Source: Escherichia phage vB_EcoS_AKFV33. Taken from it: a stretch of DNA of 64,000 nucleotides. Below the pieces are notes generated by a model. That model made no database searches and was not told the DNA's origin. It was given only the letters and a program-made list of their open reading frames with translations. Below are positions 3,079 to 60,698 of this stretch, in pieces (positions within the stretch are counted from its first letter, which is position 1; each line of letters begins with the position of its first letter). The translations under genes were made by a program, and so were the position numbers. The stretch lies in sequence record NC_017969.1; one strand, written 5' to 3'.

Positions 3079-5409
3079 TTAAATAGTACAACCACCGGAT
3101 GCACAACCGGCTGCTTCTTCTCCAGCACCTCCACCATTTGCGGTATTGAAGTTAGCGTAATACCAAGTTTTCCACCCATACTTAACAGCAGTCATGAAAT
3201 CACGAACTACTACTGGGCCAGGAATGATTTCATTCTCAAACTTGGTGTAGTCATAGTACATATTCGTACTGATAGACTGACTGAAGAATTTCTGCATAGT
3301 TGCTACCCATTTGATCCACTCGATACGATCTACATCATAAGCCAGTTTATAGCTCATTAACGTTTCCCAATCGGTTGCACCTGGAGCAATTGCAATTACT
3401 TTATTTACTGCACTACCTTTAATAGATACAATCTTACGAGGCGGTTCGATAGAGTTAGTAACTCCTAGCAGAACAGAAGAACTTTCTCCTGGCATCTGAG
3501 CAGTCAGAACAGAGTTACGCATACCATATTTCAGAATATCTGCACGCAGAGACTCCCAATCCATTTCTAGACCTACGGATACCAGTTCATCAACAGTTTT
3601 CTTGTACGTGTCGATTACCAGAATTCCTTTAGATGGTTTAGTGCGATCAAACCACTCGCATGCACCCTGTTCTTTAGCTAGGCGTACAGAGGCTTTATGC
3701 AGGAAGTAAGACAGTTTTTCAGCCTCACGGTGAATCCAGTTACGGGCTTCAATACCTTCATAAGCCAGACCTTCTGCTGCCATTGCACCTGCTGCGTTCA
3801 TTAGTCCAATACCAACATTACGACGTTTCTTAGCCGTATATTCCATAGTTGGGAACGGATAATCCTGAATTTCAATAATTGTATCAACGAATTTCAGAAG
3901 GATGTAGCAAGTTTTTTCCCACTCAGCCAGAGATTCCATGCGCCCAAGTACAACACCACCTAAGTTACACAGAGATACTTCACCAATATCCTCCGGCTTC
4001 ATTTGATCAAGCTGCTCTTTTGTCTTATACAGCTCTGTGATATGATGGAACGGGCGTGTAGGCTGAGTAATTTCAACACAAAGGTTTGTCATACGGATCG
4101 GATCAAGGAAGTTACCGTGACGATTAGATTCCCCGATGTGATGAGCATACATACGTCCTGTTTCCATTCGGATACGTAGCCAAGTATCTAGGATTTCTTT
4201 TGCAGAGACTTTAGGAGCTGCAGGAACTGTTTTTCCTTCGTGGTCGATCTTTGTAAGAGATGCCACACGTTTCTCCGCTGCCACGTAGATTTCTTCAAAT
4301 TTAGCCTCGTCATCACTATAAAACGCTTCATGAACTTCTGGAGCATAGAAGTATGACATTAGCGTAATATCTTCGTTTTTAAGATAACGTTTTAACAAAA
4401 GATTGTTAAAGCTCAGAGAATAATCCATCTTATCGATTTTATTCTCATCTGTAGCACGTTGTTGCTTAACCTGCATCAATTGAATGATTTCAGGGTCGAA
4501 GTATGGATAAGACACTGTAGCAGAACCACCACGAGTTTGCTGAGTATTGGCCTTTACTGAGCGGTCAATGTGTCGATAATATGGTAGTTTTCCGGAATGC
4601 GGGAATGCCCCATTTCGCACCGGATCAGCAATTGATCGGCTTTCAAGATGATACCCGATTCCCGCTCTGGCTGCGACCATTTTGAAGACGATGTGCTCGG
4701 CGGTGTCGATTGAATCCAACGTGTCAGTGGAATCCACGAGGCAGCAACTAGCAAATCCACGGTCACTAGAGCGCAGACCAACCAGTGGCGGCGTAGGAAC
4801 GTTGATTTTGTGGAGTGACATTGCGTTGTAGAGGTCGATTGCATCTAGAATTGTCCAGTTAGGTTGAGATAACATCGCCATTGCCATACCCATGTAGGCA
4901 AACTGCGGAGTTTCATAAATTTCACCAGTGGCTATGTTACGACGGGAATACTTATCAAAGAACTGCTTCAGTCCACCACTAGTAAAAAGACGGTCACGAT
5001 CATGGTCGATAACCTGATTCAGAGCTTCAAATTGCTCATCGGTAATCCATGCACTCATGTCTTCCCATGCACCTACGCTAACCATGTGGTCATGGAAGAA
5101 GCGCAGAGAAGGCGGTTCGAAGGAATCATAAAGGCGTTTACGCATTTGCGCAAGACGTAATTCCTTTGCTGGCACATCATATGCTGGATTATCTTTAATA
5201 AGACTTTCAGCAGCTTTAATTAATGCATCCATCAGAGTGTCGGAATCTACAACCCCTTTAGGCAGAGTTTTTTGAGCAGCCATAGTAATGGCTGACCAAC
5301 TTACATCAACTGTTTTGCAACCATACTCTGCCCAACCATTTAGTTTTTCAGGAGCAAAGTCTTCTACAGTACCGTCACGTTTAATTACTTTTTCAATGCG
5401 ATGGCTCAT
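3079..5409 (-). CDS. nrdA: ribonucleotide reductase class Ia large subunit
   Basis: N-terminal ATP-cone-like segment (VIKRDGTVEDF), active-site NLCVEI block, C-terminal Cys pair (CASGGCTI). Start placed at ATG 5407-5409, which has an AAGGAAA Shine-Dalgarno; the track ORF extends upstream to 5514 without one. Confidence 0.9.
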   Translation of the reverse strand: MSHRIEKVIKRDGTVEDFAPEKLNGWAEYGCKTVDVSWSAITMAAQKTLPKGVVDSDTLMDALIKAAESLIKDNPAYDVPAKELRLAQMRKRLYDSFEPPSLRFFHDHMVSVGAWEDMSAWITDEQFEALNQVIDHDRDRLFTSGGLKQFFDKYSRRNIATGEIYETPQFAYMGMAMAMLSQPNWTILDAIDLYNAMSLHKINVPTPPLVGLRSSDRGFASCCLVDSTDTLDSIDTAEHIVFKMVAARAGIGYHLESRSIADPVRNGAFPHSGKLPYYRHIDRSVKANTQQTRGGSATVSYPYFDPEIIQLMQVKQQRATDENKIDKMDYSLSFNNLLLKRYLKNEDITLMSYFYAPEVHEAFYSDDEAKFEEIYVAAEKRVASLTKIDHEGKTVPAAPKVSAKEILDTWLRIRMETGRMYAHHIGESNRHGNFLDPIRMTNLCVEITQPTRPFHHITELYKTKEQLDQMKPEDIGEVSLCNLGGVVLGRMESLAEWEKTCYILLKFVDTIIEIQDYPFPTMEYTAKKRRNVGIGLMNAAGAMAAEGLAYEGIEARNWIHREAEKLSYFLHKASVRLAKEQGACEWFDRTKPSKGILVIDTYKKTVDELVSVGLEMDWESLRADILKYGMRNSVLTAQMPGESSSVLLGVTNSIEPPRKIVSIKGSAVNKVIAIAPGATDWETLMSYKLAYDVDRIEWIKWVATMQKFFSQSISTNMYYDYTKFENEIIPGPVVVRDFMTAVKYGWKTWYYANFNTANGGGAGEEAAGCASGGCTI

Positions 5410-11872: not shown

Positions 11873-12301
11873 ATGTTCAATAATGTATTCTCTAAAGAAG
11901 CTAACCCAATTTTGGTTAACTTTTGGCGTACTCTCCCAGCTAGCCTGTATAATGAGGCTATTAACTCTTTGAAAATATGGTGTGAGAATAACGAAATCTC
12001 CTTTGCTTTTAAAGATGATATTGATGAGGCTCCCTGTATTGGTTTAATTGTGCAGGTAGAGGAGGGTCTTGAAGAGATTGTGGGCTGGAAAGAGTTAGAC
12101 GAAATGGGCTTAGTTTTTGCGTTAAATTATAAACTGTTTATGCCTGCTAAGCATCGCCTTGTTGTTAACTATAAAACTAGTGAATCTCCTGGTTTTCAGG
12201 TTAATGAACGTTATGGTTGGTCTTACTCACCGGAAGAAGTAAATGAGGGGATTCAGAAACTTCGACGTTTCGGGTATATGATCCCGGGTTTAACTGCTTA
12301 A
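11873..12301 (+). CDS. hypothetical protein (tandem paralog A)
   Basis: 142 aa; shares PCIG, W.E...L..ALN..LF.P and Y.PGL blocks with the next ORF. Confidence 0.5.
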   Translation: MFNNVFSKEANPILVNFWRTLPASLYNEAINSLKIWCENNEISFAFKDDIDEAPCIGLIVQVEEGLEEIVGWKELDEMGLVFALNYKLFMPAKHRLVVNYKTSESPGFQVNERYGWSYSPEEVNEGIQKLRRFGYMIPGLTA

Positions 12302-12310
12302 GGAGGCAGG

Positions 12311-12703
12311 ATGGAACAAGTATATTGGCGTCAGATTGACCCTAGTTTGGTGAAACGTGCGGAGAAGCTGCTACAACGTTGGTTGGGGGTAAGGCAAGCC
12401 TCCTTCTCTTTTCCGGAGCAGCAAACGGATGATCCATGCATTGGCGTTTTCCTGTCTGGATATGCCGGGGAATGGGAGATGGATTGGAATGAATTGTCCG
12501 CTATGAGTTTAATTGTTGCCCTAAATTTCTCTTTGTTCCATCCACGTGGTTTGGCCATATGTCGTGTGCCTGATGACGGTTGTTCGCCCCATCTTTTACA
12601 GGTGGAAGATGATATTTGGGAGTACACTCCAGATATTCTCAAAGAAGCTAAAGAACAATTAAACCGTGTTGGGATTTATGTTCCAGGCCTAAATGATGAA
12701 TGA
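12311..12703 (+). CDS. hypothetical protein (tandem paralog B)
   Basis: 130 aa; paralog of 11873..12301; AGGAGG Shine-Dalgarno. Confidence 0.5.
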   Translation: MEQVYWRQIDPSLVKRAEKLLQRWLGVRQASFSFPEQQTDDPCIGVFLSGYAGEWEMDWNELSAMSLIVALNFSLFHPRGLAICRVPDDGCSPHLLQVEDDIWEYTPDILKEAKEQLNRVGIYVPGLNDE

Positions 12704-12794
12704 TTTTTATTAGCTGAAATTTGTAATCCGGGCTATTAGTGCTCGGATTATTACATAATCTTTCCAGTCGATTGACAGTCAAAATAAATTGTCG

Positions 12795-12825
12795 TTGACA
12801 ATTTGGATGGATTATGTAATAATAT
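12795..12825 (+). promoter_or_regulatory. sigma70 promoter for the HNH gene
   Basis: TTGACA at 12795-12800, about 17 nt spacer, TAATAT-type -10; flanked by TTGAC-containing inverted repeats. Confidence 0.55.
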
Positions 12826-12842
12826 ATGTATTGGAGGTGAGG

Positions 12843-13295
12843 ATGTCATTCACACAGCAAGAACTTTTAGATAACTTCCGATATGAAGATGGTAAGTTAT
12901 TTAGAACTACAGGAAGAAATGCAGGGAAAGAATGTTGTGTTTCTACGGGTAACGGATATTATCGTATATCTCTAGGGAATAGGACTATGCTTCGGCATAG
13001 AGCAATATTTTTAATGCATCATGGATACTTACCTGATTTAGTAGATCATGTGAATACTATAAAAGGTGATGATCGTATTGAAAATCTTAGAGAGCAGACA
13101 GTGTCCGGTAATCTAAGAAATATCAAATATAAGAAAGGAATGCATGTTTACCCTTCTGGTAGTAAGAACTGGCAAGTAGTATTTACTATTAACCGTAAAC
13201 GTATAGTTAAAGGAACATATGACAACTATGAGGTTGCATGTTCTATGGCCAAGATGTTTAGAGGTCAATTATACGGTAGGGAATCAATCCAGTAA
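12843..13295 (+). CDS. HNH homing endonuclease (free-standing)
   Basis: HHGYLPDLVDHVNTIKGDDRIENLREQT fits the HNH_3 motif; start placed at ATG 12843 with a GGAGGTGAGG Shine-Dalgarno; AGA/AGG/ATA-rich codons. Confidence 0.75.
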   Translation: MSFTQQELLDNFRYEDGKLFRTTGRNAGKECCVSTGNGYYRISLGNRTMLRHRAIFLMHHGYLPDLVDHVNTIKGDDRIENLREQTVSGNLRNIKYKKGMHVYPSGSKNWQVVFTINRKRIVKGTYDNYEVACSMAKMFRGQLYGRESIQ

Positions 13296-13303
13296 AATTT
13301 CAT

Positions 13304-13333
13304 TTGCAAGGGAGTATTATTTTATAGTATAAT
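13304..13333 (+). promoter_or_regulatory. T5-type early promoter (TTGCAA-18-TATAAT)
   Basis: Near-consensus elements followed by the ATAAATGAGAGA leader; it fires into a roughly 490 nt region with no convincing ORF. Confidence 0.6.
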
Positions 13334-13828
13334 ATTCCCATAAATGAGAGACATTAGTAAAAATTGATTTTGCTAATTTTTCTTGTTTACAATCCGCGAT
13401 ACGGAACAGTTAGGCTGCCCCATTAAGGGTTGTTTTAACTATTACTAGTGTTTATATTGCATTAGTTAATCTTCAATTAAGTGATCTGTGTACCCTGAAT
13501 TCGGAAAGGTAAATCCAAACCGTGCATATTTAGCTCGTTATATAGGCAGAGCTTTATATGGGGGTGCGAACGAAAAGAGCAGCGAATGGCGGCACGTACA
13601 GTAGTCACCTACCAATAGGATAGTGAGGACAAATAGAATCGGCTTAGCGGCCAATGACCTAGGTTCTATTCTGTATATGAGCGAAGAGAGCACAGCACTG
13701 AGATATGATAACTTATTCATATTGTTTGATGATAATTGATGTTTACGTAAATAGTAGTAATAGTTGTTCTATTCTTTCTGAATAGTCCTAAAGAAAAGAT
13801 TTCTATTAATCAACACAGGAGTATTGTT

Positions 13829-16618
13829 GTGTTTTCTATCCTCCAAGGTCACGCCGGGTTTTCTCGTGATTTAGCAACAGGTATTTGGCGAGAAATCAAA
13901 GCGGAAGATTATACCTTTGCCAAACGATTCTCGAAAGAGCATCCAGAAGGTAAACCAGCTTCTATGCCCTTCAAATTTGATGTAATAGAAGAGCACGACC
14001 CACAAAGCCTTGCCGAAATGTTACCACTTATGAGACGTTTAACGTCTGACCCTCATATCGTTGCGGTACGAGGTCGATGTCTTGCACCTAAAAATAATGT
14101 GCGACGTAAGAAAGGTAACTTTAATGTATCCAACCCTAGCAATATTATTGCTATGGACGTGGATGGTATCCTAGATACCGGTGGGTATGACAAGTTTAAT
14201 CTTGTAGGTATGGCTCGACATATTATTAGGATGTTAAATAGTATTAGTGAGGATATGTTTCCTCTTGATGCAGGGTTTATCGCTCATGCATCGTCTTCGG
14301 CTGGGCTAAAACCAGGTATCCGAATGCACTTAATACTAGAATCTAATGTTAAGGTAACTCAGGGTCAAATCAAATTCTTATTTACATCTATCAACGAAAG
14401 TAGTAGACAAAAGTATGGCTTTGATATTGCCGACTTAGCTTATTACTCTTCCGTACAGCTCCATTATTTTGCAGATCCGTTATTTACCGATGGTATAGTA
14501 GATCCGTTTAAAGCGGAGAGTAAGCCACGTCTGGTATATGTTAAAGGTTCGAAGGTAAATTTGCCCAATAATCTGGTTGACTATGAAACAACTAGAGGGG
14601 AATTTAAGGAAGAGTTTTATTCTTTACTTGATCAAATTAAAGGCAAAAAGATTGCTTCTGATAAAGTAGAAGAAACCATCAGCGAATTGGAAGAAGCCGA
14701 GGATGGGGTGTACTTGCGTATTATCCCCAAACTCTACCATAGAGCATTAGAGGATGGTGTTGATTTCGCATGGCTAGAACGTGAGATTAAACCCGCTTTA
14801 TCTGAATATATTGCAACTAAAGATAACAGTCGTAATATTCAAGATTACTTTAATAACGGTCGTAAGCAGGCTCTCAAAGCGTTTGTTAATAATTCTAAAC
14901 GTGAGATCCCATTAAATCTGAAGGGTGTTCCACTCAAGAAATTAGAAGTGGATTCTCCACCAGAAGTTCCGTACCTGAAGATTAACATTGTGCCTCCAAA
15001 AGGCCATATAACATTTGTTAAGGCAAGTCTTGGTACTGGTAAGACTACGGCAGTAACTAAATGGCTGGACGCAGGTGTTCTTCCTGGCAACTTTTTAGCA
15101 GTTACAAATACTAGAGCACTGGTATCTTCAAACGCTAAGAAATTTAGCGCAGGACAATATGATAAGTCTGTAGATATGCTCAACTTTAAACGTGGAGCTA
15201 TTGATCGTATGTCTACAACTATCCACTCTTTGCATAAGTTCAAAAGTTTTATTGGTCAAATAGATACCATTTTTATTGATGAATGTGATGCTGTAATGAA
15301 TGATCTATTATTCGCACCTGTTGTTAAGCAACGTCGCGAATGTATTCAAGTTCTACGTGACATCCTCATGACAGCTAAAACTGTAATTCTATCTGATGGG
15401 GATATTAGTGCAGAAACAATTGAAGCATATGGTTCTCTAATTGATTTTGATAAACCAGTAGCATTTTATAATCATCACCGTAAGATGCTGTCAAAAGCTC
15501 ATGCTTATGAGTTCCCGGATGAATCCAGTATTTGGGTTGCACTTCAGACCTCTCTAGAGATGGGTGAGAAATCTATCCTAGTATCTGATTGTGGGCCGGA
15601 TGAACTGAATGAGAAGGGCATGGCGTTGCGTCGTAATACGGGTGCGTTAGTTAAGGAAATCCACTCAAACTCTACGTCTGATGTAGATATTCGACGTATT
15701 CTGGATTACACAACTAATGAGCTAATTGACCAACAAATTGATTGCTTATTATGTAGTCCATCCGTAACTAGTGGTGTTGACTTCAACTATTTTGATAACG
15801 TATTCGTTATTACTAGAACCAGCAACCAAGCGCCAAACATGCGTTTCCAAGCAATCAGGCGCGACCGTGGTGCTCAGAACATTTATTATTTTATTGATAA
15901 ATCTACGAGTGGATTCTCCGCAGGTTCTGAACAATATAATATTGATGAGGGTTGGCTGGAGTTAGCACAGCAATTATACGCACGTCGTAGGGAGCTGGAA
16001 TCTAGGAATTATACTAGTACCTTACGTTATTACTTGCTTGATCAGGGTGCAACTATTGATATTTTCAGTGAAAGCTGGGGAACTATCGAAGGTGCAGGCA
16101 AAGAGTATACAGAAGAGCGAATCAAAGCCATTTTGTATTCAACTCCTGATTATTGCGCTCCACGTCATGCGGATGCGTATGAAGCTAAACTACTTCTTGT
16201 TCGCTACTATCATCTTGAGTCTATTAAAGATGTAACAGTTGAGCATGTTGAACAATATATCAAGGATAAACCTAATGATCGGGCTGCATTCTTCCATAAA
16301 ATGCACGAGATGTTCTGGGAAGATATTAAGAAGTGTTCAAATGTCACTATCAAACCATTCATAGAAGCTCTGAAAGGTAAGAAGAAAGATTTCTTCCTTA
16401 AAACAGGTCAGAGTGCTAACCCAAAATATGCCAGAATGTATCTTGGTATGATGGGTATTGGTAAAGATATGAACACGGAGAATATTGTAGACTGGTACAG
16501 AACTTATTGTAAAATCGAGTGTATGCCAATCCCATATAAGTTTATGACTGATGAGGAGAAACATATGCATGATGAAGCAATGGCAGAGCTAGGTGCTAGA
16601 AATGACAGTGAAGAATAA
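13829..16618 (+). CDS. helicase-like P-loop NTPase (putative replication origin-binding protein)
   Basis: 929 aa; GTG start with an AGGAG Shine-Dalgarno; Walker A SLGTGKTT and Walker B FIDECD; the product name comes from my recollection of T5-like annotations. Confidence 0.6.
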   Translation: MFSILQGHAGFSRDLATGIWREIKAEDYTFAKRFSKEHPEGKPASMPFKFDVIEEHDPQSLAEMLPLMRRLTSDPHIVAVRGRCLAPKNNVRRKKGNFNVSNPSNIIAMDVDGILDTGGYDKFNLVGMARHIIRMLNSISEDMFPLDAGFIAHASSSAGLKPGIRMHLILESNVKVTQGQIKFLFTSINESSRQKYGFDIADLAYYSSVQLHYFADPLFTDGIVDPFKAESKPRLVYVKGSKVNLPNNLVDYETTRGEFKEEFYSLLDQIKGKKIASDKVEETISELEEAEDGVYLRIIPKLYHRALEDGVDFAWLEREIKPALSEYIATKDNSRNIQDYFNNGRKQALKAFVNNSKREIPLNLKGVPLKKLEVDSPPEVPYLKINIVPPKGHITFVKASLGTGKTTAVTKWLDAGVLPGNFLAVTNTRALVSSNAKKFSAGQYDKSVDMLNFKRGAIDRMSTTIHSLHKFKSFIGQIDTIFIDECDAVMNDLLFAPVVKQRRECIQVLRDILMTAKTVILSDGDISAETIEAYGSLIDFDKPVAFYNHHRKMLSKAHAYEFPDESSIWVALQTSLEMGEKSILVSDCGPDELNEKGMALRRNTGALVKEIHSNSTSDVDIRRILDYTTNELIDQQIDCLLCSPSVTSGVDFNYFDNVFVITRTSNQAPNMRFQAIRRDRGAQNIYYFIDKSTSGFSAGSEQYNIDEGWLELAQQLYARRRELESRNYTSTLRYYLLDQGATIDIFSESWGTIEGAGKEYTEERIKAILYSTPDYCAPRHADAYEAKLLLVRYYHLESIKDVTVEHVEQYIKDKPNDRAAFFHKMHEMFWEDIKKCSNVTIKPFIEALKGKKKDFFLKTGQSANPKYARMYLGMMGIGKDMNTENIVDWYRTYCKIECMPIPYKFMTDEEKHMHDEAMAELGARNDSEE

Positions 16619-58561: not shown

Positions 58562-59210
58562 AGCTACTTAGAAAGATTACTATATCCTCAGGAGCAACAT
58601 TAAAAAATTCCGTGCTTCCTGTAAAATTAGAAAACCCACAGTTTTTATTATAATATTCTCTGTGAACTTCCTTTTCTAAATCTAAAGCAGTCTCTCTATC
58701 TGGCAGATGATACATGGTGAACAAGTATAGGTCAGAAAATCCAGATTCTCTTTTAACTTCATTCAGCCGTTTCTCAGGGTATAAGCTTATGCCTACTTTA
58801 GTACCACTAGAGGAGGACATGATATAGAGGAATCCGCCATTCTCCCACTTAAGAGAACAATAAGGACATCTCTTACCTTGAGTCAATCCATCTAAGGTAA
58901 TTAAACAGTCATGCCCCTTATTGCAGCGTAGATGTAGTTTTGTTTTAGCATTAGTATAGCTGCTTAACAGAGTATACCCTATATTAGATATTCTGTTATT
59001 AACTTCATCTAACGATATTGTATTATTGGAGCAGTGTGGACAACCTCTCCCCATATGGAGTATAGAATGTGGTGTTGCTTCCCAAACGTGTGCTCTCTGG
59101 CATTTAAATACTGTTTTTGTACGTTGGTTTACATATTCACCGACAATTTGGATTCCACGATCAGCTAATCTAATATTTATATCTTTTATTGTTAGCTTTT
59201 GTCGACTCAT
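58536..59210 (-). CDS. T5orf172-domain protein (second paralog)
   Basis: 224 aa; same two-zinc-ribbon plus T5orf172-like architecture as 6882..7550 (shared GEYVN.RTK..F.C...H.WE, CP.CS, TK.GIS, STEFF blocks). Confidence 0.7.
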   Translation of the reverse strand: MSRQKLTIKDINIRLADRGIQIVGEYVNQRTKTVFKCQRAHVWEATPHSILHMGRGCPHCSNNTISLDEVNNRISNIGYTLLSSYTNAKTKLHLRCNKGHDCLITLDGLTQGKRCPYCSLKWENGGFLYIMSSSSGTKVGISLYPEKRLNEVKRESGFSDLYLFTMYHLPDRETALDLEKEVHREYYNKNCGFSNFTGSTEFFNVAPEDIVIFLSSFGLEDYGH

Positions 59211-59381: not shown

Positions 59382-60698
59382 TTATTTACCACGGGAAATA
59401 GAGTAAATTCCATAGCGCAGAGCATCACAGAGGTGAGAGTTAGCATCATGACGTGGTTTTTCACGTGATAATTTTTCTTCACCTTCTTGGAAATCCCACT
59501 TGTAATTCTGCAATGCGTGAATTAATGAGGAACATGAAGCATCCACAATAATCTTGCCCTGCTGGAATAGCGCTTGCAAGCATGCTAGACCATCTAGGAC
59601 AGATTTTTTAGCTGGAGCCGATGCAATTTCATGCTCATACGCTAAGTCCTGACGGAACTGAGCTGCGGCAGAGTCAACAAAAACACGATCAACTTTATAA
59701 CGATCTATACAGTGTTGAATATACGCAGCATGCTGAGCTGTGGTTTTCTCCGCCTGCTGGTACTCTTCTAATACATAGTAAGTATCCGTATCGTAATGAT
59801 ATTTAATAGTAAGAACTGCTGTAGGATCACGATAACCAACGTCAATGCCAAGTAAGGTTTCGAATGCTTCGTCATCTTTAAAGAAGTGACGCATACCTTT
59901 GAGGTCTTTAACATGATCGATAGCGTTAAAGGTATCAAAGATCTGACCTTCGAATACAGAGAAATCAGCCTCATATTCCTGACGGAAGTAGTTTTTACTA
60001 ACTGTGCGACGTGCTTCTTCTATGTCATTCAGGTCAGCACGTGGGTTATCACGATACGTACCATGAATAGATACCCAGTTAGGCAATGTATCATCAAATC
60101 CATAGGCGTAAAACTCTTTAAACCAGTTACCACCACGAGGAGTAGAGATAAATAGAGCCTTAGAGTTTGGTTTATCTAGGGTAGGGCGCAACTGAACTCT
60201 AAAGGCATCGCCACCAACATCGGAAATTGCCGCCTCATCGAAGATGATAAAGTCATATGAACGTCCAACTGCGGAGTCAGCCTGCGCCGCAGAAGCTAGT
60301 TTAAACAGAGAACCATTAGCTAACTCAATCTCTTTATCTTTAGCGTTCTCACGTTCAGTTTGTAGGCCATACTTCTTAATAAGACCACGAATCTGAGACC
60401 ATCCGATATTGGCCAGTGAGTAGTTAGGGGCAACTACTAGCACCTTCACATTAGGTTCCAGCAATTTTAGGAACCCAAGAGTATACGCTATAAAAGACTT
60501 GCCCACACGGCGTGATACACACGCCGTTACAAAACGATGTCTAGGGTCTTCTAGAGCATTGATGATCGCTATTTGAGGACCATTAGGTGTAATACCTTCT
60601 TGTGCTAGTATTCCGGAAACAGGTAGACGAAAGAAACGTTTGTCTATTCCGAAATCAATAACATCTACTGTATTAACGTAGGGTCTTGATACTTCCAT
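59382..60698 (-). CDS. terminase large subunit
   Basis: 438 aa; Walker A-like SRRVGKS near the N-terminus; nuclease-like C-terminal half. Confidence 0.8.
   Translation of the reverse strand: MEVSRPYVNTVDVIDFGIDKRFFRLPVSGILAQEGITPNGPQIAIINALEDPRHRFVTACVSRRVGKSFIAYTLGFLKLLEPNVKVLVVAPNYSLANIGWSQIRGLIKKYGLQTERENAKDKEIELANGSLFKLASAAQADSAVGRSYDFIIFDEAAISDVGGDAFRVQLRPTLDKPNSKALFISTPRGGNWFKEFYAYGFDDTLPNWVSIHGTYRDNPRADLNDIEEARRTVSKNYFRQEYEADFSVFEGQIFDTFNAIDHVKDLKGMRHFFKDDEAFETLLGIDVGYRDPTAVLTIKYHYDTDTYYVLEEYQQAEKTTAQHAAYIQHCIDRYKVDRVFVDSAAAQFRQDLAYEHEIASAPAKKSVLDGLACLQALFQQGKIIVDASCSSLIHALQNYKWDFQEGEEKLSREKPRHDANSHLCDALRYGIYSISRGK

What the first reader, a model, noticed from the sequence alone, without database searches (positions are those of the whole stretch)
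13296..13828. 530 bp non-coding region with its own early promoter upstream of the helicase-like origin-binding candidate
A near-consensus promoter at 13304-13333 fires into about 490 nt with no convincing ORF (the only candidate is antisense, hydrophobic and lacks a Shine-Dalgarno) before the 929 aa gene begins with GTG. This could be a structured 5' leader, a small RNA, or origin-proximal DNA with binding sites for the downstream protein.
Basis: seen in the sequence. Interest (0 to 1): 0.4.

Follow-up and report, generated by a model that had tools for sequence, protein, structure and literature searches.

The report
Conserved structured RNA leader before T5 helicase
The 490 bases between an early promoter and the replication helicase gene of this T5-like phage encode a large, intricately folded RNA that is conserved across the phage family, matches no curated RNA family searched, and has no known function.

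Summary
The window is a T5-like phage, closest to Escherichia phage H8. A sigma-70 promoter (13304-13333) precedes 488 nt with no conserved ORF. The 929-aa GTG-initiated gene that follows is the T5 D2 bipolar helicase, annotated "replication origin binding protein".

The gap is a highly structured plus-strand RNA:
- a 5'-terminal hairpin (13341-13389);
- a domain with invariant ACGGAACAG..GGCUGCCCC (13390-13432);
- a ~38-bp long-range stalk (13436-13480 with 13722-13766) enclosing a ~240-nt multi-helix core, which holds an invariant UUAGCG hairpin (13641-13652);
- a hairpin just before the ribosome site, and a hairpin that pairs the GUG start.

Every helix recurs in up to eight lineages with different sequences. 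There are 60 G-U pairs against 1 A-C, and swapping strands between lineages drops pairing from 100% to 58%. The leader is more conserved than the flanking genes. Rfam, E. coli genomes, plasmids and the literature gave nothing.

No terminator, iterons or GC-skew turn were found. It is therefore most likely a cis-acting leader of the D2 mRNA. The stalk may be a processing site that releases the core. Its function is unproven.

The parts
13304..13333 (+). Sigma-70 early promoter (-35 TTGCAA, 18-nt spacer, -10 TATAAT); inferred start near 13340
   Evidence: 10/12 match. A homologous promoter is annotated in T5 NC_005859 at 58999-59073. The motif is conserved in all lineages. The start site itself is inferred, not mapped.
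13341..13389 (+). HP1: 5'-terminal long hairpin (13341-51/13379-89 and 13353-62/13368-77, loop AUUGA)
   Evidence: Present in the MFE. RNAalifold shows compensatory pairs. In the unfitted alignment, helix 1 has 7 of 16 pairs changed on both sides. The sequence differs in DU_PP_V, L045, L064, Eos and Kpn but still pairs.
13390..13432 (+). P1 domain: helix CAAUCC/GGGUUG enclosing hairpin GG-AA-CAGU[UAG]GCUG-CC, with near-invariant AUACGGAACAG..GGCUGCCCCA
   Evidence: helix 4 is 94% paired, with 4 pairs changed on both sides. P1 covaries: GAGG/CCUC in Eos and CCGAGCAU/AUGCUUGG in Kpn.
13436..13480 (+). 5' strand of the long-range stalk (LR)
   Evidence: It pairs with 13722-13766, about 38 bp in the constrained fold. 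A stalk of 19-39 bp is found at the same place in all 9 sequences tested, with different sequence in each lineage and 2-10 G-U pairs. The plus-strand duplex is -25.0 kcal/mol against -11.8 for the minus strand. The repeat finder reports it as inverted repeats I1 and I2. In one search, helices 5 and 6 have 20 pairs changed on both sides.
13481..13698 (+). Core domain closed by P3 (GUG-AU-CUGUG 13481-90 with CACAG-CAC 13691-98). It contains Pa 13492-96/13561-65, Pe 13525-29/13556-60, Pc 13532-36/13549-53, Pv 13596-601/13671-76 and GUC/GAC 13604-06/13628-30
   Evidence: P3 has seven sequence variants, all paired, helix 7 is 91% paired with 7 of 8 pairs changed on both sides. Within type A, double compensatory changes occur at 13489/13692, 13598/13674 and 13605/13629. 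For the Pa/Pd/Pe/Pc/Pb junction in relatives, 94.4% of cells are paired, 14 of 21 pairs changed on both sides, and 0/500 shuffles match. In the window that model matches only weakly but colinearly, at 13481-13590 (E=0.3). Region 13566-13595 is unresolved.
13632..13670 (+). Pu: helix AAUAGAAUC/GGUUCUAUU with inner hairpin GGC[UUAGCG]GCC (13641-13652) and a 9-nt 3' internal loop. CUUAGCGG is invariant in the aligned lineages
   Evidence: Covariance model R1 gives one plus-strand hit per phage (window 13631-13670, E=1e-6), with weak hits in L034/L035 and Proteus phages. Covariation score is 0.507 against at most 0.24 for slid controls. Double compensatory changes occur at 13633/13669 and 13634/13668.
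13699..13715 (+). Plast hairpin (UGAG/CUUA). Relatives have AAGGGG/CCCCUU and similar, with a loop resembling GUUGCCA
   Evidence: seven lineage variants, all paired.
13722..13766 (+). 3' strand of the long-range stalk (LR)
   Evidence: Same evidence as for the 5' strand.
13769..13785 (+). HPrbs hairpin CUAUUC-UUUCU-GAAUAG, 2 nt after the stalk and ~33 nt before the Shine-Dalgarno
   Evidence: It covaries: CUUUCC/GGAAAG (DU_PP_V), CCAUC/GAUGG (Eos), CUAUC/GAUAG (Kpn), AUACUAU/AUAGUAU (L064). Present in the MFE.
13812..13833 (+). Hairpin with the Shine-Dalgarno AGGAG partly in the loop and the GUG start codon (13829-31) base-paired
   Evidence: Present in the MFE. A C13816U change in the L006 group keeps the pair as U-G. 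Seen only in Markadamsvirinae, so this is inference.
13829..16618 (+). D2 bipolar SF2 helicase / 'replication origin binding protein' gene served by the leader
   Evidence: PMC3632103. D2 protein type co-segregates with leader type.

Best explanation
The gap encodes a conserved, elaborately folded plus-strand RNA that forms the 5' leader of the D2 replication-helicase mRNA.

Shown:
- A promoter sits at a conserved position.
- There is no ORF and no terminator.
- Eleven or more helices are kept by compensatory change across Demerecviridae lineages.
- The strand asymmetry identifies the plus strand.
- The leader is more conserved than the flanking genes.
- Leader type co-segregates with D2 type.

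Inferred mechanism:
- Host RNA polymerase starts near 13340.
- The transcript opens with a 49-nt terminal hairpin, which probably guards the 5' end.
- About 300 nt later the two arms of a ~38-bp stalk meet and enclose a ~240-nt multi-helix core.
- The stalk ends 2 nt before a hairpin that precedes the ribosome site, and the GUG start is itself paired.
- The fold therefore most likely sets the stability and translation of D2 mRNA, possibly through binding of D2 or another factor.
- The stalk has the size of an RNase III substrate. Cleavage there would separate the D2 message from the leader and free the core, as with rRNA processing stems and the lambda N leader.
For: - The region is in 442 T5-like phage records, mostly at 90-99% identity.
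- The leader is more conserved than the genes around it. Against Salmonella phage 1-29 (L006) it is 92.7% identical, versus 85.3% for D2 and 72.0% for the upstream gene. Against T5 the figures are 98.6%, 95.0% and 92.4%.
- RNAalifold on 6 lineages gives 44 pairs, 19 of them with compensatory changes.
- The long-range stalk is 19-39 bp in all 9 sequences tested, with different sequences; the plus strand is far more stable than the minus strand.
- In the curated helices, 534 of 549 pairs are canonical, with 60 G-U against 1 A-C.
- Pairing is 100% within a lineage, 58% when strands are swapped between lineages, and 91% when read on the minus strand.
- The unconstrained MFE contains 84 of the 90 comparative pairs.
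- On an unfitted MAFFT alignment, 74.3% of cells are paired against 38-46% for slid controls. The covariation score is 0.350 against at most 0.139, and 0/500 shuffles match.
- Sub-models confirm this.
- Within type A there are 5 double compensatory pairs and 7 one-sided changes that keep pairing.
- No terminator lies between the promoter and D2 in the window, Proteus or L034 lineages.
- D2 protein type tracks leader type.
Against: - No transcript data were available, so the start site, read-through and any processing are all inferred.
- The folding z-score alone is modest (-1.99).
- Part of the core (13566-13595) is unresolved.
- Several inner helices of the window's type A variant rest on hand alignment. 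The model of the relatives' junction matches the window only at E=0.3.
- Proteus phages carry a second 12/12 consensus promoter directly before D2. DU_PP_V and L045 have TATAAT within the 3' stalk arm. D2 may therefore also be made without the leader, which weakens a purely cis role.
- Co-segregation with D2 may be simple linkage.
- No ligand, protein partner or RNase III cleavage has been shown.
Confidence: 0.6

Rival explanations
1. The stalk-enclosed core is a trans-acting non-coding RNA in its own right, such as a ribozyme, a ribonucleoprotein component, a replication cofactor or an anti-defence decoy. It would merely be co-transcribed with D2 and excised at the stalk.
For: - The architecture (a long processing-type stem around a compact multi-helix domain with invariant loops UUAGCG and ACGGAAC) resembles excised stable RNAs.
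- In Proteus phages the module lies 290-620 nt upstream of D2, which has its own consensus promoter.
- In the L034 lineage ~170 nt separate the stalk from D2.
- The size and complexity are unusual for a bacterial leader.
Against: - No terminator follows the module in any lineage.
- In Markadamsvirinae the stalk abuts the ribosome-site hairpin.
- It is always immediately upstream of D2, one copy per genome.
- Nothing indicates a target or partner.
Confidence: 0.2
2. The leader is a riboswitch-like sensor. The conserved core would bind a metabolite or ion and alter D2 translation or mRNA decay.
For: - Invariant nucleotides are concentrated in loops and junctions, with covarying stems.
- An alternative local hairpin competes with the 5' stalk arm (13435-41 with 13461-67; read from the sequence).
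- Nucleotide-metabolism genes such as nrdD lie upstream.
Against: - No Rfam riboswitch matched, even at E<=10.
- There is no terminator/antiterminator platform.
- The start-codon hairpin is limited to one subfamily.
- The 5' half of the core differs strongly between types A and B, which is unlike a fixed ligand pocket.
Confidence: 0.08
3. The region is the phage replication origin. It would work either through DNA sites or a cruciform recognised by D2 (as HSV oriS is by UL9), or as a transcript-primed origin in which the promoter-driven RNA forms an R-loop (ColE1 RNA II or T4 oriF type).
For: - It lies directly upstream of the UL9-like initiator candidate D2.
- It has a strong promoter and AT-rich inverted-repeat arms.
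- Leader type co-varies with D2 type, most in D2 residues 1-130.
- T5 replication origins remain poorly studied (PMC3632103; PMC10055335).
Against: - Direct-repeat families have only 2 copies, consistent with chance.
- No GC-skew turn is seen at 13.5 kb; the sign changes are near 6 and 34 kb.
- Editing data suggest dominant unidirectional T5 replication from one genome end (PMC10055335).
- The 60:1 G-U to A-C asymmetry and the covariation of many small internal helices point to a single-stranded plus-strand fold, not duplex sites.
- The stalk arms are ~250 nt apart, which is poor for cruciform extrusion.
Confidence: 0.08
4. The stalk arms are terminal inverted repeats of a miniature mobile element, or the conservation merely reflects recent common ancestry with no function.
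For: Inverted repeats of 18 nt flank ~290 nt. Indel variation exists nearby, including a ~97-nt insertion in 51 of 440 records.
Against: - There is one copy per genome, always at the same locus, in 442 records.
- It is present in subfamilies whose D2 proteins are only 56-79% identical.
- The arms differ in sequence between lineages but stay complementary, with G-U pairs on one strand only.
- The internal helices covary.
Confidence: 0.02

Closest known systems
RNase III-processed phage leaders and rRNA processing stems (lambda N leader, T7 early mRNA sites, stems flanking 16S/23S rRNA)
   Same: A long, imperfect double-stranded RNA stem is formed by sequences far apart in an early transcript. 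It lies just upstream of a ribosome site and encloses a structured RNA. At ~38 bp, its length fits RNase III substrates (from established knowledge of the enzyme).
   Different: No cleavage has been shown here. The enclosed RNA is a ~240-nt conserved domain of unknown role, not rRNA. Lambda and T7 sites are local hairpins of ~20-30 bp rather than a stem spanning 330 nt.
Translational operators of phage replication genes (T4 gene 43, gene 32, RegA targets)
   Same: An RNA structure sits at the 5' end of a replication-protein mRNA, with possible autoregulation. Leader type and D2 type co-segregate.
   Different: T4 operators are single hairpins or pseudoknots of 20-40 nt next to the start codon. 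This leader is 488 nt with more than 11 helices. No D2-RNA binding is known.
ColE1 RNA II and T4 oriF/oriG transcript-primed origins
   Same: A promoter drives a several-hundred-nt non-coding structured transcript next to replication functions.
   Different: No evidence of an R-loop, an RNase H site or an origin was found here. The transcript continues into a protein gene.
Large structured non-coding RNAs associated with phages (GOLLD, ROOL) and other large orphan RNAs (OLE, raiA)
   Same: It is large and multi-helical, strongly covarying, phage-borne and of unknown biochemical function.
   Different: There is no sequence or structure match to any of them in Rfam 15. This RNA is fixed in a 5' UTR upstream of one specific gene and restricted to Demerecviridae.
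HSV oriS/oriL recognised by UL9
   Same: The downstream protein carries the UL9-type Herpes_ori_bp region. Inverted repeats lie next to the gene.
   Different: HSV origins are short palindromes with repeated UL9 boxes in duplex DNA. Here there are no repeated boxes, and the constraint is on a single-stranded plus-strand fold.

Membership tests
Sigma-70 (T5 early-type) promoter | -35 and -10 hexamers with 16-18 nt spacing at a conserved position | tested here: met
   TTGCAA-18-TATAAT, 10/12. Annotated promoter at the homologous T5 site. Conserved AAATTTTACTTGC-N17-TATAATAT in all lineages.
Sigma-70 (T5 early-type) promoter | Mapped transcription start | not testable with these tools
   No transcript data available; the start near 13340 is inferred from the -10 position.
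Any curated Rfam 15 family (RNase P, tmRNA, 6S, group I/II introns, riboswitches, GOLLD, ROOL and others) | Covariance-model score at or above the family's gathering threshold | tested here: not met
   No hit in the whole window. Nothing relevant at E<=10 in 12700-14300. Nothing relevant in 8 divergent homologous loci either. A loose motif resemblance to RNase P (ACAGAAC..GGCU) was not borne out.
Structured cis-acting 5' leader of an mRNA | Lies on the coding strand between promoter and start codon with no intervening terminator | tested here: met
   no plus-strand terminator-like site in the window, Proteus or L034 leaders.
Structured cis-acting 5' leader of an mRNA | Secondary structure conserved through compensatory substitutions | tested here: met
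Structured cis-acting 5' leader of an mRNA | Measured effect on expression of the downstream gene | not testable with these tools
   Needs reporter fusions or phage mutants.
RNase III processing stem | About two or more turns of mostly continuous double-stranded RNA | tested here: met
   About 38 predicted pairs, 13436-13480 with 13722-13766; 19-39 bp in every lineage. This is prediction only.
RNase III processing stem | Cleavage by RNase III in vivo or in vitro | not testable with these tools
   No data; a literature search found nothing for T5.
Riboswitch | Ligand-binding aptamer coupled to a mutually exclusive expression platform | tested here: inconclusive
   Invariant loops and junctions exist. 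No terminator platform was found. The start-codon hairpin occurs in only one subfamily, and the core's 5' half varies strongly between types.
Replication origin (iteron/DUE or UL9-box type) | Three or more repeated initiator-binding sites | tested here: not met
   Only two-copy direct-repeat families of 10-22 nt.
Replication origin (iteron/DUE or UL9-box type) | Compositional-skew turn or other mark of replication polarity change at the site | tested here: not met
   Cumulative GC skew rises steadily through 13.5 kb; sign changes are near 6 and 34 kb. This is weak evidence in phages.
Replication origin (iteron/DUE or UL9-box type) | Initiation activity or D2 binding | not testable with these tools
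   Needs marker-frequency analysis or binding assays.
MITE / inverted-repeat mobile element | Multiple copies or variable insertion sites | tested here: not met
   One place per record in 442 records. One model hit per locus and one in the 64-kb window. No match in E. coli genomes or plasmids.
Small protein-coding gene | An ORF conserved in position and frame among relatives | tested here: not met
   9-19 stops per plus-strand frame in most lineages. The longest ORFs differ in strand and position between lineages.

The most novel reading that the evidence does not exclude
The stalk-enclosed core, together with the ACGGAAC domain, is a previously unrecognised class of large structured RNA. It would be specific to T5-like phages (Demerecviridae) and have a biochemical activity of its own, for example a ribozyme, a ligand or protein sensor, or an RNA cofactor of the D2 initiator helicase in starting T5 DNA replication. 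It would be released from the early transcript by cleavage of its processing stem.
Probability: 0.25. Interest if true: 0.85.

Novelty: new variant of a known kind. Interest (0 to 1): 0.62.

Why it matters
T5 is a classic model phage. Its replication initiation is still poorly understood, and its reference annotation shows only a promoter and empty space here.

A 488-nt leader with a ~38-bp long-range stem and a ~240-nt covarying core is far larger and more complex than known phage translational operators. It is more conserved than the genes around it and is found across several subfamilies of the phage family.

Large, intricately folded orphan RNAs are rare, and several have turned out to be ribozymes or RNA machines. 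If this one controls or assists the D2 initiator helicase, it offers a direct experimental handle on how T5-like phages time and start DNA replication.

It also flags mis-annotated small ORFs and extended D2 starts in many deposited genomes. It provides a seed alignment for a new RNA family.

Tried and rejected
- **RNase P-like RNA.** Motif resemblances (ACAGAAC..GGCU, CCAUAGG..GGUAAGGCC) prompted Rfam E-value scans of the window and 8 divergent loci. Nothing was found, and the motif order does not fit.
- **Second promoter at 13364-13393 (9/12).** By eye on the sequences printed, the -10 is weak or absent in other lineages. It also lies inside HP1 and P1, which covary, so it was not adopted.
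- **HP1 as an intrinsic terminator.** Its U-run is paired with the 5' GAGAGA, and the stem is AU-rich.
- **Minus-strand terminator-like site at 13655-13638.** This is just the reverse of the Pu hairpin.
- **RNAduplex on whole leader halves.** The run timed out, and duplex energies for real sequences were no better than for shuffles.
- **Ungapped stem scores against mononucleotide shuffles.** These did not discriminate on their own. Only positional consistency across lineages did.
- **Motif scan of 185,579 genomes.** It gave one hit, in Arthrobacter, about what chance predicts.
- **'Swapped cassette' idea for type A versus type B cores.** This was softened because D2 co-segregates with leader type. 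The recombination break lies upstream of the leader.
- **Model R2 of the relatives' three-way junction.** It does not find type A, Eos or Kpn with default filters.
- **Vibrio-phage leaders.** They showed no detectable homolog of the Pu motif.
- **Literature searches.** Searches for T5 origin mapping, non-coding RNAs, RNase III processing and the sequence motifs themselves returned nothing relevant.

Full report
**Identity and context.** The window is a T5-like phage of the Demerecviridae. Region 12700-14400 is 97.9% identical to Escherichia phage H8 and matches 443 phage records. The finding's 533 nt match 442 records, mostly at 90-99% identity.

The downstream 929-aa ORF (13829-16618, GTG start) is annotated "replication origin binding protein". 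It has a Herpes_ori_bp match at residues 389-533. It is the biochemically characterised T5 D2 bipolar SF2 helicase. The published cloning primer equals window 13829 onward, and D2 amber mutants show no net DNA replication (PMC3632103).

In the T5 reference record the homologous interval carries only an annotated terminator (58952-76) and promoter (58999-59073), followed by ~470 unannotated bases before the CDS at 59545. In this window an HNH homing-endonuclease ORF (12789-13295) replaces the terminator.

**Check of the observation.**
- The promoter TTGCAA-18-TATAAT lies at 13304-13333 (10/12).
- Such matches are as frequent as in shuffled sequence (20 found, 19.3 expected). The promoter's credibility therefore comes from the T5 annotation and from conservation of AAATTTTACTTGC-N17-TATAATAT in every lineage.
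- The 488 nt that follow have 13-16 stops in each plus-strand frame.
- The 60-aa antisense ORF does not appear among the ORFs of a 92.7%-identical relative, and no ORF is shared among lineages.
- No plus-strand terminator-like site lies between promoter and gene.

**Architecture conserved well beyond T5.** The same layout appears in Markadamsvirinae, Mccorquodalevirinae (Pectobacterium phage DU_PP_V and L045), a metagenomic relative (L064), phage Eos and Klebsiella phages. A ~600-800-nt gap upstream of D2 also occurs in the L034/L035 lineage and the Proteus phages, each with a Pu match and a stalk candidate (see below); Vibrio phages have the gap. The layout is:
1. terminator of the upstream operon;
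2. strong promoter;
3. hairpin starting at the transcript's 5' end;
4. about 400 nt of GC-richer sequence;
5. hairpin, ribosome site and the D2 gene.

Invariant islands stand out in otherwise diverged sequence: AUACGGAACAG..GGCUGCCCCA and GGCUUAGCGGCC.

**It is a structured plus-strand RNA.** The comparative model for the window is as follows.

| Element | Window coordinates |
|---|---|
| HP1 | 13341-51/13379-89 and 13353-62/13368-77 |
| P1 (encloses GG-AA-CAGU[UAG]GCUG-CC) | 13390-95/13427-32 |
| Long-range stalk, ~38 bp | 13436-13480 with 13722-13766 |
| P3 | GUG-AU-CUGUG 13481-90 with CACAG-CAC 13691-98 |
| Pa | 13492-96/13561-65 |
| Pe | 13525-29/13556-60 |
| Pc | 13532-36/13549-53 |
| Pv | 13596-601/13671-76 |
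| GUC/GAC | 13604-06/13628-30 |
| Pu, with inner GGC[UUAGCG]GCC at 13641-52 | 13632-40/13662-70 |
| Plast | 13699-702/13712-15 |
| HPrbs | 13769-74/13780-85 |
| Hairpin pairing the GUG start | 13812-18/13827-33 |

The evidence is:
- RNAalifold on six lineages gives 44 pairs, 19 of them with compensatory changes.
- The stalk exists in all nine sequences tested, at 19-39 bp with different sequences and 2-10 G-U pairs. It is much more stable on the plus strand than on the minus strand (for example -25.0 against -11.8 kcal/mol).
- In the curated helices, 534 of 549 pairs are canonical, with 60 G-U against 1 A-C.
- Pairing is 100% within a lineage, 58% when the two strands are taken from different lineages, and 91% when read on the minus strand.
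- The unconstrained minimum-free-energy fold of 13341-13840 (-132.4 kcal/mol) already contains 84 of the 90 comparative pairs.
- On a plain MAFFT alignment not fitted to the structure, 74.3% of cells pair against 38-46% with slid partners. 66 pairs changed on both sides against 33-45. The covariation score is 0.350 against at most 0.139, and 0 of 500 shuffles reach any measure.
- A covariance model of Pu finds one plus-strand hit per phage. It also gives weak hits in the L034/L035 and Proteus lineages, and none in Vibrio phages. Its covariation score is 0.507 against at most 0.24.
- A model of the Pa/Pd/Pe/Pc/Pb junction in type B, DU_PP_V, L045 and L064 gives 94.4% paired cells and 14 of 21 pairs changed on both sides.
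- That junction model matches the window's own divergent type A version only weakly, but at the colinear place: 13481-13590, E=0.3 with filters off.
- Between the window and the 92.7%-identical L006 group, five pairs changed on both sides and seven on one side while keeping pairing. Most broken pairs lie in helices predicted by energy alone.
- The plus-strand fold is more stable than the minus strand (-101.6 against -80.7 kcal/mol; z -1.99 against -1.04).

**Selection.** The leader is more conserved than the coding sequence around it. Against L006 it is 92.7% identical, versus 85.3% for D2 and 72.0% for the upstream gene. Against T5 the figures are 98.6%, 95.0% and 92.4%.

Two versions of the core circulate in Markadamsvirinae. 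Type A includes T5 and this window. Type B includes CitS1 and many Salmonella phages, and shows only 68% identity over the leader.

D2 proteins cluster with leader type. Types A and A2 are ~93% identical to each other, B is 86-91% identical to them, and B sequences are 94-100% identical among themselves. The largest difference is in D2 residues 1-130. By contrast, the upstream gene of a type B phage is 94% identical to the window's. Leader and D2 therefore travel together, and recombination breaks lie upstream of the leader.

**What it is not.**
- Not a curated RNA family: Rfam 15 gives nothing at gathering thresholds. It also gives nothing relevant at E<=10 in the window or in eight divergent homologs. 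No tRNA or tmRNA was found.
- Not borrowed from the host or from plasmids.
- Not obviously an origin. Repeat families have two copies only. Cumulative GC skew rises straight through the site, with sign changes near 6 and 34 kb. Editing data suggest dominant unidirectional T5 replication from one genome end (PMC10055335).
- Not a multi-copy mobile element: there is one place per record.
- Literature searches, including searches for the motifs themselves, found no description.

**Mechanism.**

*Shown:* the promoter position, the absence of an ORF and of a terminator, the fold, its strand, its conservation, and its linkage to D2.

*Inferred:* the transcript starts near 13340 with a terminal hairpin that would protect the 5' end. 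The stalk closes only after ~300 nt have been made, packaging a ~240-nt core. The stalk ends 2 nt before HPrbs and ~50 nt before the Shine-Dalgarno, and the GUG start is paired. I therefore favour a cis-acting leader that sets D2 mRNA stability and translation (confidence about 0.6). D2 autoregulation is a natural but untested option.

The stalk has the dimensions of an RNase III substrate. Cleavage there would detach the D2 message and release the core, as with rRNA processing stems or the lambda N leader. This step is speculative (about 0.3).

A trans-acting role for the core is the main rival (0.2). It gains weight from two observations. Proteus phages have a second 12/12 promoter directly before D2, with no terminator in between. 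Other lineages have extra spacing between stalk and gene. The riboswitch and origin readings remain possible but less likely (0.08 each).

**Novelty and value.** Structured leaders are a known kind of element. This one has no detectable relative among the families searched. It is unusually large and complex, and it sits in a model phage upstream of its replication initiator. I rate it a new variant of a known kind, with interest 0.62. There is a roughly one-in-four chance that it is a new class of functional large RNA.

Noticed in passing
window 12789-13295 (and up to ~13345): An HNH_3 homing-endonuclease ORF sits between the second DUF7415 gene and the leader promoter, where T5 has a terminator. 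From the HNH stop to ~13345 the sequence differs from T5: the promoter's -35, spacer and discriminator are replaced and only the -10 is kept. The cassette therefore seems to have brought or converted the upstream half of the promoter. 41 of 443 records cover at least 80% of the query that includes it.
   Followed up: partly
L018 958-1053; also Shivani L001 ~3700-3800: A ~97-nt insertion lies between HP1 and P1 in 51 of 440 T5-like records, one copy per genome. It is flanked by a TTTTTCTT duplication and carries its own hairpin plus a small stem with a U-run, which Shivani annotates as a terminator. It occurs with both type A and type B cores. Its effect on read-through into the core is unknown.
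   Followed up: partly
L002 (phage oselot) 2542-2572: There is a tandem triplication of ATTTTGCTA within the 3' arm of HP1, annotated as a repeat_region in the record.
   Followed up: no
Homologous leaders in GenBank records (e.g. L040 890-1442, L043 1021-1645, oselot CDS start at L002 2925): Several deposited genomes annotate 30-55-aa hypothetical proteins or an upstream-extended D2 start inside the leader. In the lineages where I scanned ORFs, none is conserved in position or frame, so these calls are probably spurious.
   Followed up: partly
window 13663-13672 and 13766-13775: There is an exact 10-nt direct repeat, GTTCTATTCT. One copy is the 3' strand of Pu and the other is the 5' arm of the pre-ribosome-site hairpin. 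Either could pair with 13632-39, giving a possible alternative pairing. By eye it is absent from type B leaders.
   Followed up: no
window 13411-13415 and 13787-13791: The bases UUAGG in and beside the loop of the ACGGAAC-domain hairpin are complementary to CCUAA just after the pre-ribosome-site hairpin. The Eos equivalent (CUCGG/UCGAG) also pairs, but DU_PP_V and Klebsiella phages pair poorly. This is a possible tertiary contact and is unverified.
   Followed up: no
L041 (Proteus phage VTCCBPA139) 705-733 and 1435-1464: Two perfect 12/12 sigma-70 consensus promoters are present. One lies at the start of a ~770-nt leader and one directly before D2, with no terminator between them.
   Followed up: partly
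window 11873-12301 and 12311-12703: Two adjacent paralogous genes with DUF7415 domains lie upstream of the leader. They are the T5.106/T5.107 homologs, and their function is unknown.
   Followed up: no
window ~6000 and ~34000: GC skew changes sign near 6 kb and 34 kb. In T5, divergent promoters between phoH and nrdD suggest the first change tracks a switch in transcription direction; I did not check gene orientation in the window at either place. Neither coincides with the D2 leader.
   Followed up: no
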